From the IMG/VR virus record IMGVR_UViG_3300020477_001105, positions 47,663 to 111,662 of that record: a DNA stretch of 64,000 nucleotides; one strand, given 5' to 3'. The DNA is from a virus. Under the pieces are notes generated by a model. That model searched no databases, was not told the DNA's origin, and saw only the letters and a list, made by a program, of their open reading frames with translations. Within the stretch, counting starts at the first letter, position 1, and each line of letters opens with the position of its first letter. Below, piece by piece: positions 23,469 through 58,415 of this stretch. Made by a program: the position numbers and the translations under genes.

Positions 23469-23493
23469 TATTTATTCGCTATAAAGATAAATA
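23469..23493. promoter_or_regulatory. Divergent pair of late promoters
   Basis: AATAAATA on minus (23469-23476) and GATAAATA on plus (23486-23493). Confidence 0.7.
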
Positions 23494-23920: not shown

Positions 23921-23941
23921 CCCTAAAGAATAAATATTGAT

Positions 23942-25385: not shown

Positions 25386-25763
25386 TTAATGCTTATGCTT
25401 ACGACCTTCAACCATTACTAGATCTTTGGCAGGAATATTCTTCTCAATACCATTGTCCCACTGAACATCATAGTATTCAACTTCACCTTGTTCATTAATA
25501 GTATGGTGAGTGACTGTCCCTACAGATTCTTTTTTAGCGTCAGACCGACGCTTTCGAACTGTTTTCCATCAGTCGTGAGATTTGTGAGAATTATCTTTGG
25601 CCTTCTCCTCGACAATGCCTTTCTGGATAAATTGTCCAGTAGACGGGCAGTACCAATGAGCTTCAACAACAACACGGTCGTAGTACTCGATAGTTCTCAA
25701 CTTAGGAGTAGAATATTCTCCTGTAAAGGGAGACATAATTTTCTTTGGTTGTACGAAATCCAT
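25386..25763 (-). CDS. Candidate selenoprotein (125 aa, in-frame TGA at codon 65)
   Basis: The 64-aa ORF continues in frame past TGA (25569-25571) for 60 codons to TAA; SECIS-like hairpin follows the TGA; late promoter upstream. Confidence 0.7.
25536..25552 (-). promoter_or_regulatory. Bacterial SECIS-like hairpin
   Basis: AGCGTC-GGTCT-GACGCT; the stem starts at nt 17 and the loop at nt 23 after the TGA; GGUCU loop as in the E. coli fdhF SECIS. Confidence 0.7.
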
Positions 25764-25768
25764 TTTAA

Positions 25769-26131
25769 TTATTTATGCTTTTTGTTATTTTTTCTATACT
25801 GTGCCTGGCATACCATATACACATCGGTAGGTAATGGTTCAATCTCTTCTAATATTTCATTCTGCAATCCATACTCTACATCACTGCGCGGCACTGATCT
25901 AACGTGTAAATCCGGTAAAGATAGAAACATATATTGATCCTTTCGCTTCTCCATTAAAACAAAGAACTCTCCTCTATAATCACCATGAGCAACAGCATAA
26001 ACTGTCCGTTCTTTTATACTACCCTTATCGGTACCACTGGATGGTTTGTTCCAAGCCTTCTTTAAAGTCTTTATAATCGATTTTAGCAATTGAATTAAGT
26101 TTATCTGAGTTAATTGAGTACCTAAAGTCAT
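25769..26131 (-). CDS. Hypothetical protein (start uncertain)
   Basis: Fills the gap below rmlB; the 5' part overlaps rmlB. Confidence 0.55.
   Translation of the reverse strand: MTLGTQLTQINLIQLLKSIIKTLKKAWNKPSSGTDKGSIKERTVYAVAHGDYRGEFFVLMEKRKDQYMFLSLPDLHVRSVPRSDVEYGLQNEILEEIEPLPTDVYMVCQAQYRKNNKKHK
25770..25777 (-). promoter_or_regulatory. Late promoter (CATAAATA)
   Basis: 6 nt upstream of ATG 25763. Confidence 0.7.
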
Positions 26132-26969
26132 GACCTAGCCTATCATCTACAAACTCAATCAAATCATGAGGTTTTCCGACAATATCTAAGATCAATTTGA
26201 CCATCTCTATATTCTGAATCTCTTTTCCAGATCCAATATTATATACTTCTCCCGCTTGACCGTTTTTATATACTTCATATATAGCCTTGCAGTGATCTTC
26301 TACGTAAATCCATTCTCTAACATTCTCACCCTTACCGTAGACAGGAATAGGTTTATCGTTTAATGCATTAGAAATAACTTTAGGAACTAGCTTCTCATCG
26401 TGCTGTCTGGGTCCATAATTATTACAGCATCTAGTAGTTACTACGTCTAACCCGAAAGTCTTATTAAACGATCTAACGATTAAATCCGCTGATGCCTTTG
26501 ATGCCGAATAAACATTATTAGGTTCTAGAGGGTTACTCTCTTTAAATGACGGGTCGTCTAAGCCTAATGCACCATATACTTCATCGGTTGATACATGAAC
26601 AAACCTAGGCACATTATACTCTCTCGCTTTTTGTAAAAGATTAAACGTTCCATATACATTAGCATCGATAAAAATCTCCGGACCAGTGATACTATTATCT
26701 ACGTGGCTCTCAGCGGCAAAGTGAAATATAGCCTTCACATTCTCACCATTAAGTGCATCGGCTATGACGCTCTTACTAGTAGCTAAATCACAACACGTAA
26801 CAACAACCCTGTTATCTTTATAATTTTTTTGTAAGATGTTACCGATATCAGCAGCATATGTCATCTTGTCGAGCACATGAACAGTACCATCCGTATGGTC
26901 ACACAAGTAATTGACAAAATTACTCCCGATAAAACCACAACCACCTGTTACGATATAATCACGCGTCAT
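26025..26969 (-). CDS. rmlB: dTDP-glucose 4,6-dehydratase
   Basis: TGGCGFIG, AAESHVDNSI, STDEVYG, YSASK, NNYGP, DRLGHDFRY. Confidence 0.95.
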   Translation of the reverse strand: MTRDYIVTGGCGFIGSNFVNYLCDHTDGTVHVLDKMTYAADIGNILQKNYKDNRVVVTCCDLATSKSVIADALNGENVKAIFHFAAESHVDNSITGPEIFIDANVYGTFNLLQKAREYNVPRFVHVSTDEVYGALGLDDPSFKESNPLEPNNVYSASKASADLIVRSFNKTFGLDVVTTRCCNNYGPRQHDEKLVPKVISNALNDKPIPVYGKGENVREWIYVEDHCKAIYEVYKNGQAGEVYNIGSGKEIQNIEMVKLILDIVGKPHDLIEFVDDRLGHDFRYSINSDKLNSIAKIDYKDFKEGLEQTIQWYR

Positions 26970-27858
26970 ATTTTCTCTCCAAATATGTTCTATATTGACA
27001 ATTAGGCAGTGAAGAGATTACATTACAAAATTGGTTATAGCTAATAAATTCTTTTTTATAGGCGATCTCCTCAACACAACCAATCATCAACCCTGTTCTA
27101 GATTGAATGGATTTTACAAACATCGACGCTTCGAACATAGCTTCTGGTGCACCGGTATCAAACCAAGCAGCGCTATCTCTAAGCAACTTAACCTTTAGTT
27201 TTTTATCCTTGATGTAAAGGTTATTTAAATCCGTAATTTCAAGTTCACCTCTAGGTGAGGGTTTAAGAGAGCGTGCCTTGCTCACAGCAGAAGAATCATA
27301 AAAATATAACCCTGGTACGGCATAATTAGACTTAGGGTTTGCTGGTTTCTCCTCAATACCTTTAACTCTAACATTTCTCTCATACATGTCAGATGGTCGC
27401 TCAAAATCGACAACACCGTATTCTTCCGGGTTAGCCACCCTATATCCGAACACGCAATTTTCATTCATCTTACTAATGTACATTAAGTCCTTATAGAAAT
27501 CCTCTCCGTAAAAGATATTATCACCCAGTGCTAATGCACACGGGTCACCTTTAAGAAATCCAACGTTCTCAGCAATTAAAAATGCTTCTGCAATGCCATT
27601 AGGTACGTCTTGTGTTGCGTACTCAATATTCATACCCCAGTCATTACCATTACCCAGAGTGCTATTAAACTGTAATATCTGATCAGGCGATGATATAATT
27701 AATACATCTCTGATGACAGCTGACATCAAGGACGCTAGCGGATAATAAATCATAGGCTTATCATACACTGGCAATAGCTGCTTATTGACACCAGCGGTCA
27801 TAGGATACAACCTCGTACCCTTTCCGCCTGCTAGAATGATTCCTTTTCTGTAACCCAT
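26959..27858 (-). CDS. rmlA: Glucose-1-phosphate thymidylyltransferase
   Basis: GIILAGGKGTRLYP, KQLLPVYDKPMIYYPL, LGDNIF, EEKP, PSPRGELEITD. Confidence 0.97.
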   Translation of the reverse strand: MGYRKGIILAGGKGTRLYPMTAGVNKQLLPVYDKPMIYYPLASLMSAVIRDVLIISSPDQILQFNSTLGNGNDWGMNIEYATQDVPNGIAEAFLIAENVGFLKGDPCALALGDNIFYGEDFYKDLMYISKMNENCVFGYRVANPEEYGVVDFERPSDMYERNVRVKGIEEKPANPKSNYAVPGLYFYDSSAVSKARSLKPSPRGELEITDLNNLYIKDKKLKVKLLRDSAAWFDTGAPEAMFEASMFVKSIQSRTGLMIGCVEEIAYKKEFISYNQFCNVISSLPNCQYRTYLERKYDA

Positions 27859-27859
27859 T

Positions 27860-28765
27860 TTAAAATGTTCCTACACCACCGATACCATATTTTAATTCCA
27901 TATCATACTTCATGCCCATAACACACTGATTTAGAGCATACTGTACTGATGGGAGTTTAATTCCGTATTTAGATAGTTTATCAGTGCTAAGTGTACAATT
28001 AGACCGCTTACATGCTAAATCTAAATCTTGCTCTTTGACTTTAGTCCAATCTGCATACCCCATTCCATGCTTTCTTAAAACATCCAATATACCGTGAATA
28101 TTAATCTTACCTTCATTGACTACATTGAAAATACCGGGTGGAATTTCGTGCCTATTTTCACATATCTTCTCTACAACCGTACACAAGTCTTCTACTCGCG
28201 TAATAGAGTTAACAGCGTCAATAACACGCTTGTATTTTCTCAATTTCACTAGTAGATTCTTATCGTGATCCTTACCGATAACAGGCATTCGAATTCTTAA
28301 CGTGTAGCAATCCATGTCCTTTAAAAGTAGCTCACCGGCATGTTTCGAGCGACTGTAAAAACTGCTGTCGTTATTATATACACCGAAATTAGGTACATCT
28401 TCCTCAGTAAAGTCTTGGTCTCCTTGATAGATACACCCGCTAGAAATATGAATTACAGGTGTTCCGAAGTGTTCATTAATAAGGCGAGTTGTTCTAGCAG
28501 GAGCTACTACGTTGTATAACCAGCAATCTTCTTTATTAGATTCACAACCATCAACATTTGGGGAACCTGTATACCCGGAACAATTCACTACCACATCATA
28601 AGCAGGATTGGCTTCACTTAGAAAATGTCTGAGAGATTTAGCACCATTACCAGTCAAAGCGTAATCAACATCTCTTTGTGTGATTAAATCCGTGTTATGG
28701 TAGTCTGATAAATGACGGTGTACGGCCTGGCCGATGAATCCTCCACCTAATACTAATAACTTCAT
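27860..28765 (-). CDS. RmlD-like NDP-4-keto-6-deoxyhexose reductase, possibly bifunctional epimerase/reductase
   Basis: GGGFIG, GYTGSPNVDGCE, SSGCIY, YSRSK, LRIRMP. Confidence 0.8.
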   Translation of the reverse strand: MKLLVLGGGFIGQAVHRHLSDYHNTDLITQRDVDYALTGNGAKSLRHFLSEANPAYDVVVNCSGYTGSPNVDGCESNKEDCWLYNVVAPARTTRLINEHFGTPVIHISSGCIYQGDQDFTEEDVPNFGVYNNDSSFYSRSKHAGELLLKDMDCYTLRIRMPVIGKDHDKNLLVKLRKYKRVIDAVNSITRVEDLCTVVEKICENRHEIPPGIFNVVNEGKINIHGILDVLRKHGMGYADWTKVKEQDLDLACKRSNCTLSTDKLSKYGIKLPSVQYALNQCVMGMKYDMELKYGIGGVGTF

Positions 28766-52648: not shown

Positions 52649-52748
52649 CCCATGAATAAAGACTTATGAGGATTTGGGACCGCCCTTTACTATGCGCCAT
52701 GCGCCGGATTAAGCTAACTCCCACTGACTCAGCATAAATAATAATGAT

Positions 52749-58392: not shown

Positions 58393-58415
58393 TCGTCCGA
58401 ATAAATAATTAAGTA

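What the first reader, a model, noticed from the sequence alone, without database searches (positions are those of the whole stretch)
25386..25777. Candidate phage-encoded selenoprotein: in-frame UGA plus bacterial SECIS in a late gene
Seen: the 64-aa ORF (25763-25569) ends ...SHKSHD-TGA, but the frame stays open for 60 more codons (WKTVRKRRSDAKKESVGTVTHHTINEQGEVEYYDVQWDNGIEKNIPAKDLVMVEGRKHKH-TAA). The extension fills the otherwise empty gap before primase, and its only in-frame ATG lies 9 codons from the end. Starting at nt 17 after the TGA is a perfect hairpin AGCGUC-GGUCU-GACGCU, with the loop starting at nt 23. Established: bacterial Sec insertion uses a hairpin just 3' of the UGA with a G-led apical loop bound by SelB; the E. 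coli fdhF loop is AGGUCU. Inference: the phage borrows host SelB/tRNA-Sec to make an H-D-U protein whose His-rich C-domain (HDU, HH, HKH) could bind metal. From memory, the domain resembles T4-like phage proteins with HDC...YDV.F..GIE..P...L...H.H, which would place Cys at the UGA. The late promoter suggests a virion protein with a short (stop) form and a selenium-dependent long form.
Basis: partly seen in the sequence, partly recalled or inferred. Interest (0 to 1): 0.95.

Follow-up and report, generated by a model that had tools for sequence, protein, structure and literature searches.

The report
Phage gene encoding a selenocysteine protein
A small late gene of this uncultured marine T4-like phage has an internal UGA "stop" that related phages keep where other relatives have cysteine. 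An RNA hairpin of the bacterial selenocysteine-insertion type always follows it, so the gene most likely encodes a selenoprotein, which I found reported for no virus of bacteria.

Summary
ORF 25763-25572(-) runs into TGA 25571-25569, and the frame stays open for 60 more codons to TAA 25388-25386. A perfect hairpin, AGCGUC-GGUCU-GACGCU, starts 17 nt after the TGA.

The TGA is neither an error nor a broken gene. Four independent metagenome contigs (62-78% aa identity) keep CAC-GAC-TGA-TGG and the same hairpin. At least 27 IMG/VR phage contigs of sister subfamilies have TGA at the same motif position, H-x-U-x-x-[H/K/T]-V.

Cyanophage and other relatives (P-SSM7_192, S-B64 gp080, many metagenome proteins) have Cys there. 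Both sides of the TGA are under purifying selection.

The hairpin stem avoids synonymous change in this subfamily. In the sister subfamilies it shows compensatory changes, with 175 of 175 cells paired.

TGA is an ordinary stop elsewhere in this genome. None of the phage records searched carries tRNA-Sec (11 records) or selA/B/D (5), and a complete 284-kb relative has no UGA-suppressor tRNA. The host must therefore supply the machinery. The host is unknown.

The domain folds as a small SH3-like barrel with conserved His residues. Metal binding is inferred, not shown.

This scan had already found the same superfamily on other DNA (e1-5319761). I found no paper reporting it.

The parts
25770..25777 (-). 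T4-type late-promoter-like motif CATAAATA, ending 7 nt before the ATG. It overlaps the stop of the upstream ORF.
   Evidence: ATAAATA is not enriched in the window overall (25 found, 31 expected), but many copies, this one included, lie about 6-15 nt before ORF starts. The motif is kept in L003 and L004 but not in L005 or L006.
25572..25763 (-). Codons 1-64: an N-terminal beta-rich domain that ends ...SHKSHD. In other phages this domain also occurs as a stand-alone protein of 55-70 aa.
   Evidence: pLDDT about 90 for residues 1-55. pN/pS is 0.20-0.41 against L003 and L004.
25569..25571 (-). In-frame UGA (codon 65), read as selenocysteine. It is the third residue of the conserved H-x-[U/C] motif.
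   Evidence: The TGA is kept in L003-L006 and in 27 IMG/VR contigs of sister subfamilies. Cys stands there in P-SSM7_192, S-B64 gp080, L019-L021 and many metagenome proteins.
25536..25552 (-). SECIS-like hairpin AGCGUC-GGUCU-GACGCU. The stem starts at nt 17 and the GG-led loop at nt 23 after the UGA. It encodes K-R-R-S-D-A.
   Evidence: The stem is identical in all 5 sequences of the subfamily. None of its 4 stem codons shows synonymous variation, against 23 of 32 other conserved codons. The loop codon varies (GGUCU, GGUCC, AGUCU).
25389..25568 (-). Codons 66-125: the rest of the H-x-U domain, a five-stranded SH3-like barrel that ends H-K-H.
   Evidence: pN/pS is 0.13-0.34 in this frame. AlphaFold model, pLDDT 79. 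BFVD matches to the cyanophage family at TM about 0.8. PHROG 764 matches at E = 2.5e-5 across residues 46-125.
25386..25388 (-). TAA, the true stop of the 125-codon gene.

Best explanation
Window 25763-25386(-) is one gene of 125 codons. Its codon 65 (UGA) is decoded as selenocysteine. When a ribosome of a Sec-competent host reaches the UGA, the host's SelB-GTP-Sec-tRNA(Sec) complex binds the hairpin that starts 17 nt downstream. It delivers Sec in competition with release factor 2. The product is an N-terminal beta domain fused to a roughly 65-residue SH3-like barrel. The first strand of the barrel carries H-D-U and the last strand ends H-K-H. When Sec insertion fails, the product is the 64-residue N-domain alone, a module that other phages encode as a separate protein. 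Shown here: the conserved TGA, the Cys/TGA pairs, selection on the protein on both sides of the TGA, selection on the hairpin, TGA used as a normal stop elsewhere, and the absence of Sec machinery in every phage record searched. Sec as a metal ligand has precedent in formate dehydrogenase and [NiFeSe] hydrogenase (my own knowledge).
For: (1) The TGA is kept across deep divergence. The window and L003-L006 read CAC GAC TGA TGG. 27 IMG/VR contigs read GHT-TGA-[L/A]THV or PHN-TGA-ATHV. L018 reads EHK-TGA. Synonymous sites are near saturation (pS 0.5-0.8).
(2) Cys aligns with the TGA in all TGA-free relatives: HDC, HMC, HAC, HSC, HNC and HLC.
(3) The conserved domain straddles the TGA. The His two residues before it is invariant in both Sec and Cys forms.
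(4) pN/pS is 0.13-0.34 downstream and 0.20-0.41 upstream.
(5) A hairpin follows every TGA form (weaker in L018: 6 bp, -4.6 kcal/mol), starting 12-17 nt after it; the loop is GG-led except in L003 (AGUCU) and L018 (AGUU). In the sister groups 175 of 175 cells pair. One pair appears as CG, AU and UA; another as AU, GC and GU. The 3' arm was not part of the search pattern. In the window's own group 0 of 4 stem codons vary synonymously, against 23 of 32 others.
(6) Cys forms lack a consistent hairpin.
(7) TGA ends about 34 of about 120 genes in this genome, with a median 5-codon extension.
(8) These are the criteria the field uses for a new selenoprotein: Sec/Cys pairs, TGA-containing homologs and a SECIS-like structure just downstream (PMC12013277).
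Against: The host is unknown, so its Sec machinery could not be checked. Host inference through RfbA failed, and the nearest cultured phages are only 26-28% identical in primase. No Rfam family matched, although bacterial SECIS elements are poorly covered there. I could not run bSECISearch or deep-Sep. The window's own subfamily shows no compensatory change, only conservation, and the compensatory changes come from about 3-4 lineages of sister subfamilies. The loops vary (GGUCU, GGA, GGG, GGU, AGUU), and the common subtype GGA lacks the G-U step. No partner Cys for a redox pair is conserved. No selenium or protein data exist.
Confidence: 0.8

Rival explanations
1. The UGA undergoes programmed read-through by an ordinary tRNA (near-cognate Trp or Cys). 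The hairpin acts as a read-through stimulator or ribosome pause, and selenium plays no part.
For: A conserved UGA followed by a conserved downstream structure also fits read-through signals. The host's Sec machinery is unproven. Phage records carry no tRNA-Sec or sel genes.
Against: The position holds Cys in every TGA-free relative and is never a true TGG. It lies in an invariant H-x-C motif where Trp would not substitute. The hairpin position (stem starting 12-17 nt after the UGA) and its loop, which is G-led or has G second, fit the bacterial SECIS type. Near-cognate read-through is inefficient for a protein that is otherwise well conserved.
Confidence: 0.1
2. The TGA is a real stop. The region makes a 64-aa protein and, separately, a downstream domain translated by re-initiation or from an unusual start codon.
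For: Public gene callers split many relatives in this way (short N- and C-fragments). The N-domain exists as a stand-alone protein in other phages.
Against: No conserved start codon or Shine-Dalgarno sequence follows the TGA. The codon after it is TGG, CTG, CTA, CTT, GCG, GCA, GCT or GTG. The first in-frame ATG in the window is 9 codons from the end. The conserved motif H-x-[U/C] lies before and at the TGA, so the domain cannot begin after it. In L005 and L006 the part before the TGA is only about 25 residues long.
Confidence: 0.04
3. UGA is reassigned, either by a code-4 or code-25 host or by a phage-encoded UGA suppressor tRNA, so that UGA is sense throughout late genes.
For: Some phages recode stop codons. 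Public catalogues translated these genes with table 4.
Against: TGA ends about 28% of this genome's genes, with short extensions. A scan for other TGA-interrupted frames found only this gene. No tRNA was found in the 111-kb record. A CheckV-complete 284-kb relative has 8 tRNAs, none with anticodon UCA. A reassigned code would predict Trp or Gly, not Cys, in the homologs.
Confidence: 0.04
4. The TGA is a nonsense mutation (pseudogene) or an assembly error.
For: TGC or TGT to TGA is a single base change.
Against: The same TGA occurs in 5 independent assemblies of this subfamily and in 27 or more contigs of sister subfamilies. The frames are intact and pN/pS is low on both sides.
Confidence: 0.01

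Closest known systems
Bacterial selenoprotein genes with an in-ORF SECIS read by SelB (prototype E. coli fdhF)
   Same: Both have an in-frame UGA at a Cys-homologous position. Both have a stem-loop just 3' of the UGA inside the coding sequence with a G-led apical loop; the window's loop GGUCU resembles the fdhF loop (my own knowledge). Both have Sec/Cys homolog pairs (PMC12013277).
   Different: The gene is in a virus of bacteria that carries none of the Sec machinery itself. The protein family is phage-specific and is not one of the known redox enzyme families. I found no paper in the library reporting a phage selenoprotein.
Cyanophage T4-like gene cluster 715 / PHROG 764 ('possible cytitidyltransferase': P-SSM7_192, S-B64 gp080, MED4-213 M4QDN5)
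   Same: It is the same domain. PHROG 764 matches at E = 2.5e-5. tblastn hits span the TGA. Structural matches reach TM about 0.8. The H-x-C ... H[ST]L.E.G..YDV ... H.H motifs are shared.
   Different: These relatives have Cys instead of UGA and lack a consistent hairpin. The domain sits in proteins of 133 to about 1000 aa with other partners. The 'cytidyltransferase' label has no support in the domain itself.
The H-x-U-x-x-H phage family already reported by this scan on other DNA (e1-5319761; first-reader notes e1-5997729, e1-5319756, e1-5872628)
   Same: It is the same superfamily and the same Sec position. My loci L007-L014 and L106-L132 (IIGHT-U-LTHVKRK) are that group, and P0070 from L128 retrieved those notes.
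   Different: The window's gene belongs to a separate subfamily (H-D-U-W-K-T-V). It has a different N-terminal domain and a hairpin of different sequence set one codon further from the UGA. It has no IMG/VR relatives other than the window's own record.
Poxvirus selenoproteins (molluscum contagiosum GPx1-like, fowlpox GPx4-like)
   Same: Both are virus-encoded selenoproteins that depend on the host's Sec machinery (PMC8310308).
   Different: The poxvirus genes belong to eukaryotic viruses, use eukaryotic SECIS elements and were captured from cellular GPx genes. Here the gene has a bacterial-type SECIS and belongs to a family with no cellular counterpart found.
Small SH3-like barrels (NusG/Spt5 KOW, Tudor, SH3)
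   Same: The predicted topology is five-stranded. Best VIA-align scores are Z 5.0-5.5 with rmsd 2.6-3.4 over 48-55 residues.
   Different: These Z values are in the range of common arrangements. There is no sequence relation, and none of these domains has the His/Sec motif.

Membership tests
Bacterial-type selenoprotein gene (UGA-Sec with in-ORF SECIS) | An in-frame UGA conserved among homologs with intact frames on both sides | tested here: met
   5 sequences of the subfamily and 27 IMG/VR contigs of sister groups. pN/pS is 0.13-0.41 on both sides.
Bacterial-type selenoprotein gene (UGA-Sec with in-ORF SECIS) | Cys-containing homologs aligned at the UGA, with conserved flanks | tested here: met
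   H-x-C in P-SSM7_192, S-B64 gp080, L019-L021 and at least 15 metagenome proteins.
Bacterial-type selenoprotein gene (UGA-Sec with in-ORF SECIS) | A stem-loop just 3' of the UGA with a G-led apical loop, under selection as RNA | tested here: met
   Compensatory changes and 100% pairing appear in the sister groups. The window's group shows synonymous-site conservation in the stem. bSECISearch itself was not available.
Bacterial-type selenoprotein gene (UGA-Sec with in-ORF SECIS) | selA, selB, selC and selD present in the translating cell | not testable with these tools
   The host is unknown. The phage records have none of these genes.
Bacterial-type selenoprotein gene (UGA-Sec with in-ORF SECIS) | Selenium actually incorporated at the UGA | not testable with these tools
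   This needs 75Se labelling or mass spectrometry.
PHROG 764 / T4-like GC 715 domain family | Sequence and fold match to the family's N-terminal domain | tested here: met
   PHROG 764 matches at E = 2.5e-5, residues 46-125 against profile positions 48-124. BFVD matches reach TM 0.72-0.82, probability 1.00.
Cytidylyltransferase (the label carried by PHROG 764) | A nucleotidyltransferase domain | tested here: not met
   No Pfam cytidylyltransferase match at E <= 1. The matched part is a 65-residue beta barrel.
Stop-codon-reassigned phage (table 4 or 25) | TGA used as sense throughout and rare or absent as a stop | tested here: not met
   TGA ends about 34 of about 120 ORFs. No other TGA-interrupted gene was found.
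KOW/Tudor/SH3 small-barrel domains | A fold match clearly above background | tested here: inconclusive
   Best Z is 5.5 (1m1g NusG KOW), tied with many SH3, Tudor and chromo chains. Foldseek against the PDB gave no hit at E <= 0.001.

The most novel reading that the evidence does not exclude
The UGA and SECIS work as a selenium- and SelB-dependent switch that sets the ratio of two phage products: a free 64-aa N-domain when translation terminates, and an N-domain fused to a His3-Sec metal-binding barrel when Sec is inserted. The barrel would be a widespread module of marine T4-like phages, delivered in or with the virion, because many relatives carry N-terminal leaders that resemble T4 capsid-targeting sequences. 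Phages of Sec-competent hosts would have upgraded its Cys ligand to Sec, while cyanophages keep Cys.
Probability: 0.25. Interest if true: 0.9.

Novelty: new variant of a known kind. Interest (0 to 1): 0.8.

Why it matters
Selenoproteins are known from cells and from two poxviruses. I found none described for bacteriophages, and surveys of marine selenoproteomes report few or no viral sequences. A phage-specific family that keeps UGA-Sec and its own SECIS across dozens of uncultured marine T4-like phages would have four consequences.

- Phages would be shown to exploit the host's recoding machinery.
- Sec competence would become a new host-range marker: the Sec form would imply a Sec-decoding host, and cyanophages would keep the Cys form.
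- A systematic annotation error would be exposed. Public catalogues split these genes or translate the UGA as Trp.
- A small, tractable domain would be available for studying why Sec replaces Cys next to conserved His residues.

Tried and rejected
I fetched the DNA of close relatives through the search for related loci instead.
- Peptide-based scans of IMG/VR with the window's protein or its subfamily alignment found nothing. A DNA pattern for the window's subtype also found nothing. This subfamily is known only from the window's own record and 4 metagenome contigs.
- An alignment of all subfamilies was too divergent for the locus search.
- MAFFT misaligned the window's group against the sister groups, because the hairpin sits one codon further from the UGA. 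I therefore counted covariation only within the sister groups.
- Rfam gave no credible match.
- Host inference through the adjacent RfbA gene failed, with about 50% identity to many phyla.
- The primase is only 26-28% identical to cyano-, Pelagibacter and Acinetobacter phages.
- No cultured phage carries the GHT-U subtype.
- The phage records contain no tRNA-Sec, selA, selB or selD. The sub-threshold tRNA-Sec hits I examined with ARAGORN are ordinary Leu, Ser, Arg, Asn, Thr, Lys and Met tRNAs, and all of those in the complete record G006 are covered by its whole-genome scan.
- A scan of the 111-kb record for other TGA-interrupted genes gave only chance in-frame neighbours.
- Foldseek against the PDB with the whole model gave nothing significant.
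- Rejected: the 'Trp at the TGA' reading of P0004-P0007. It is a table-4 gene-call artefact.
- Rejected: the 'cytidyltransferase' label.
- Rejected: the overlapping TGATG as a coupled restart. That frame closes after 9 codons.
- I did not use the sequencing-run tools or the complex-prediction tool.

Full report
**What is in the sequence**

On the minus strand an ATG at 25763 opens a 64-codon ORF that ends ...SHKSHD-TGA, with the TGA at 25571-25569. The same frame then runs 60 more codons (WKTVRKRRSDAKKESVGTVTHHTINEQGEVEYYDVQWDNGIEKNIPAKDLVMVEGRKHKH) to TAA at 25388-25386. The primase start follows 37 nt later.

The only in-frame ATG after the TGA is 9 codons from the end. A perfect 6-bp hairpin, AGCGUC-GGUCU-GACGCU, occupies 25552-25536, so its stem begins at nt 17 and its loop at nt 23 after the UGA.

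Taken alone the hairpin is unremarkable. The 76-nt fold has z = -1.66. About 3% of coding windows in this genome reach -11 kcal/mol, against -12.7 here.

**Context**

The window is the last 64 kb of a 111,662-bp IMG/VR virus record that CheckV estimates to be 53% complete. It is a T4-like phage, but a distant one: its primase is only 26-28% identical to those of cyanophages, Pelagibacter phage HTVC008M and Acinetobacter phages.

TGA is an ordinary stop in this genome. Of about 120 long non-overlapping ORFs, 71 end in TAA, 34 in TGA and 15 in TAG. The median open extension after a TGA is 5 codons. A scan for other TGA-interrupted frames found only this gene; the other candidates were neighbouring genes that happen to share a frame. 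Global recoding is therefore excluded.

**Homologs with Cys**

tblastn of the read-through protein against cultured phages hit 27 records. All but one are cyanophages; the exception is an unannotated single-virus genome (Marine virus AG-345-E15). In several the alignment runs straight across the TGA, covering residues 28-125.

P-SSM7_192 (T4-like gene cluster 715, labelled 'possible cytitidyltransferase') reads ...KSKSHDCASKV...HYDVLFSHGIEKNVPVENLEIVKEGVHEH. S-B64 gp080 reads ...KGHDCAKLV.... Cys therefore aligns with the UGA, and the His two residues before it is invariant.

PHROG 764 matches residues 46-125 at E = 2.5e-5, again across the TGA. Pfam gives nothing credible and no nucleotidyltransferase match.

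**The 'Trp' trap**

The closest proteins in the large catalogue, P0004-P0007 (58-75% identity), read HD-W-WKTVRKRRSDA.

The DNA says otherwise. The four related metagenome contigs L003-L006 all read CAC GAC TGA TGG. L006 is the 1305-bp contig that P0007 comes from, and L005 encodes P0006. The W is therefore a UGA translated with table 4 by the gene caller.

The exhaustive HMMER search tells the same story. Many hits are short N-terminal fragments that stop near codon 64. Others are short C-terminal fragments that begin just after the motif. A third set has 'W' in H-x-W. A fourth set has Cys: HDC, HMC, HAC, HSC, HNC and HLC.

**Sister subfamilies**

Locus searches with two sub-alignments, and then a DNA pattern, retrieved IMG/VR phage contigs that carry an in-frame TGA at the same motif position. 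27 contigs (25 distinct sequences) read IIGHT-TGA-[L/A]THVKRK or PHN-TGA-ATHVEWK, and one more reads EHK-TGA. In most of them the frame is open for 45-80 or more codons before the TGA. Three contigs have Cys instead (VHDCPKHV).

The family motif is H-x-[U/C]-x-x-[H/K/T]-V ... G.V..H[ST]L.E.G...Y[DN]V.[WF] ... [IV]P...L ... H.H. The record in which the window lies has a single copy.

**Selection on the protein**

Within the window's subfamily, synonymous sites are close to saturation (pS 0.32-0.79). Non-synonymous change is low. pN/pS is 0.13-0.34 downstream of the TGA and 0.20-0.41 upstream. Both halves are therefore translated in this frame.

No conserved start codon or ribosome-binding site follows the TGA. 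The next codon is TGG, CTG, CTA, CTT, GCG, GCA, GCT or GTG, depending on lineage. Because the conserved His precedes the TGA, the domain cannot start after it.

**Selection on the RNA**

Every TGA form has a hairpin that starts 12-17 nt after the UGA. The loop is GG-led except in L003 and L018, where G is the second loop base:

| Group | Hairpin | Loop |
|---|---|---|
| Window's group | AGCGUC / GACGCU | GGUCU, GGUCC or AGUCU |
| Sister groups | 7-bp stem | GGA, GGG or GGU |
| L018 | AAACUG / CAGUUU | AGUU |

In the 25 distinct sister-group sequences, all 175 stem cells form standard pairs. One pair occurs as C-G (18), A-U (4) and U-A (3). Another occurs as A-U, G-C and G-U. A third alternates between G-U and G-C. 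Sliding the 3' partner by 1-3 columns drops pairing to 42-57% (the smaller set is).

The 3' arm was not part of my search pattern, so its complementarity is not circular. The invariance of four 5'-arm bases (GGAA) is partly by construction. The compensatory changes are non-synonymous on both sides, for example Arg CGG with Ala GCU, Arg AGG with Ser UCC, and Trp UGG with Thr ACU. The protein has changed to preserve the RNA stem.

In the window's own subfamily the stem never varies. None of its 4 stem codons shows a synonymous difference, against 23 of 32 other conserved codons. The loop codon and both flanking codons do vary. By simple binomial reasoning that is about 0.006; this is my own arithmetic and ignores relatedness.

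Cys forms have no consistent hairpin at the same place, with fold energies from 0 to -8.3 kcal/mol and no shared structure.

**Who decodes the UGA**

The window has no tRNA gene, and the whole record has only a tmRNA-like gene. Searches found no tRNA-Sec in the eleven phage records tested and no selA, selB or selD in the five tested. The sub-threshold tRNA-Sec hits examined are ordinary tRNAs.

One relative, G006 (284 kb), is CheckV-complete. It has 8 tRNAs and a tmRNA, and none has anticodon UCA. The decoder must therefore come from the host.

I could not identify the host. A 2026 preprint uses 135 Pelagibacter genomes as a selC-free negative control and reports full Sec machinery in Actinomarina. 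SAR11 is therefore an unlikely host, while Sec-competent marine hosts exist. Every cyanophage member I examined has Cys. That fits picocyanobacteria lacking Sec decoding, but this last point is my own knowledge and is only indirectly supported by PMC5029168.

**What the protein is**

AlphaFold models the 125-residue protein as two beta domains, with pLDDT 82 overall and about 90 for residues 1-55. Modelled alone, the C-domain (residues 61-125) is a five-stranded barrel with pLDDT 79.

Its best solved-structure matches are NusG/Spt5 KOW, Tudor and SH3 domains at Z 5.0-5.5. That is the range of a common arrangement and not evidence of relationship. Among viral models it matches the cyanophage family at TM 0.72-0.82.

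H-D-U lies on the first strand and H-K-H on the last. In such barrels these two strands are usually neighbours. A site made of His-x-Sec and His-x-His, perhaps with the invariant His of 'HHT', is therefore a reasonable inference. I could not inspect coordinates, so it remains an inference. No second Cys is conserved that could form a redox pair.

The N-domain occurs as a separate 55-70-aa protein in other phages and is fused to unrelated C-terminal parts in others. Termination at the UGA would therefore still give a plausible product.

**Late promoter**

CATAAATA ends 7 nt before the ATG. ATAAATA is not enriched in the window (25 found, 31 expected), but many copies sit about 6-15 nt before ORF starts. 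The motif also overlaps the stop of the upstream ORF. Late expression is plausible but not shown.

**Literature and earlier notes**

Full-text searches found viral selenoproteins only in poxviruses (PMC8310308). Marine selenoproteome surveys mention no phages (PMC2398784) or report that the selenoprotein families examined had few or no viral sequences (PMC9402790). Reviews and prediction tools do not mention phages either.

The criteria those papers use for a new selenoprotein are Sec/Cys pairs with conserved flanks, TGA-containing homologs, and a SECIS-like structure just downstream. All three are met here.

This scan has already reported the sister group (H-x-U-x-x-H, 'IIGHT-U') on other DNA with the same conclusion (e1-5319761; first-reader notes). 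It has also reported other candidate phage selenoprotein families. I treated those notes as leads and re-derived the evidence here.

**Verdict**

The gene most likely encodes a 125-residue selenoprotein of a phage-specific family, decoded by the host's SelB system through an in-ORF SECIS (confidence about 0.8).

The main remaining rival is selenium-independent read-through (about 0.1). Metal binding, virion location and a switch between two isoforms are hypotheses.

Noticed in passing
P0004-P0007, P0015, P0028, P0031, P0036, P0046, P0050, P0053 (public protein catalogue): Public gene calls translate the in-frame TGA of this family as Trp, using table 4. Other calls split the gene into N- and C-terminal fragments with invented starts such as MTHVKRK... 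This systematic annotation artefact hides the family.
   Followed up: yes
window 25593-25763 (-), residues 1-57: The N-terminal domain (..VQPK.I.SP..G....P........D....EA.W.CP..G.FI.KG.V) is a separate conserved phage module. It is stand-alone in many contigs (55-70 aa) and fused to a different acidic C-terminal part in others (P0013, P0022, P0024, P0025, P0069). It has no Pfam or PHROG match. AlphaFold pLDDT is about 90.
   Followed up: partly
L106-L132 (e.g. L128:6330-6728:-), L005:795-1057, L006:761-1027: Many family members begin with MKITRKQLR.II.EEL or MKFNDLWKVLFE followed by Lys-rich sequence. This resembles T4 capsid-targeting leaders with an L/I-x-E prohead-protease site (my own knowledge). 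It would imply that these proteins are packaged as internal head proteins. The window's own protein lacks this leader.
   Followed up: no
G000:C1:5-397 (-), 47 kb before the window: ARAGORN calls a tmRNA-like gene with an unusually long tag (GKNKVSELFAKVADMFQATPKQELALA). A first-reader note (e1-5976370) also mentions it.
   Followed up: no
L148:12995-13358 (-) (G006, 284-kb complete relative): A phage-encoded tmRNA with tag ANDNVEYDYALAA lies next to a cluster of 8 tRNAs. It might help to place the host of that relative.
   Followed up: no
window 26025-28765 (-): Directly upstream lies a dTDP-sugar cluster of RfbB-like dehydratase, RfbA-like thymidylyltransferase and a reductase-like gene. The RfbA-like protein is about 50% identical to bacterial ones from many phyla, so it gives no host signal.
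   Followed up: partly
window, 25 sites of ATAAATA (e.g. 23469-23475 -, 23487-23493 +, 23930-23936 +, 52734-52740 +, 58401-58407 +): The motif is not over-represented in the window, but many copies lie about 6-15 nt before ORF start codons. This fits T4-type late promoters set very close to the start.
   Followed up: partly
P0021 (543 aa, metagenome): A protein with 7 tandem stretches resembling the barrel part of the domain (..YD[IL].Y.DG..E..V..E.[IV]R..) but without the His/Cys motif. The barrel scaffold therefore also exists outside the H-x-[U/C] family.
   Followed up: no
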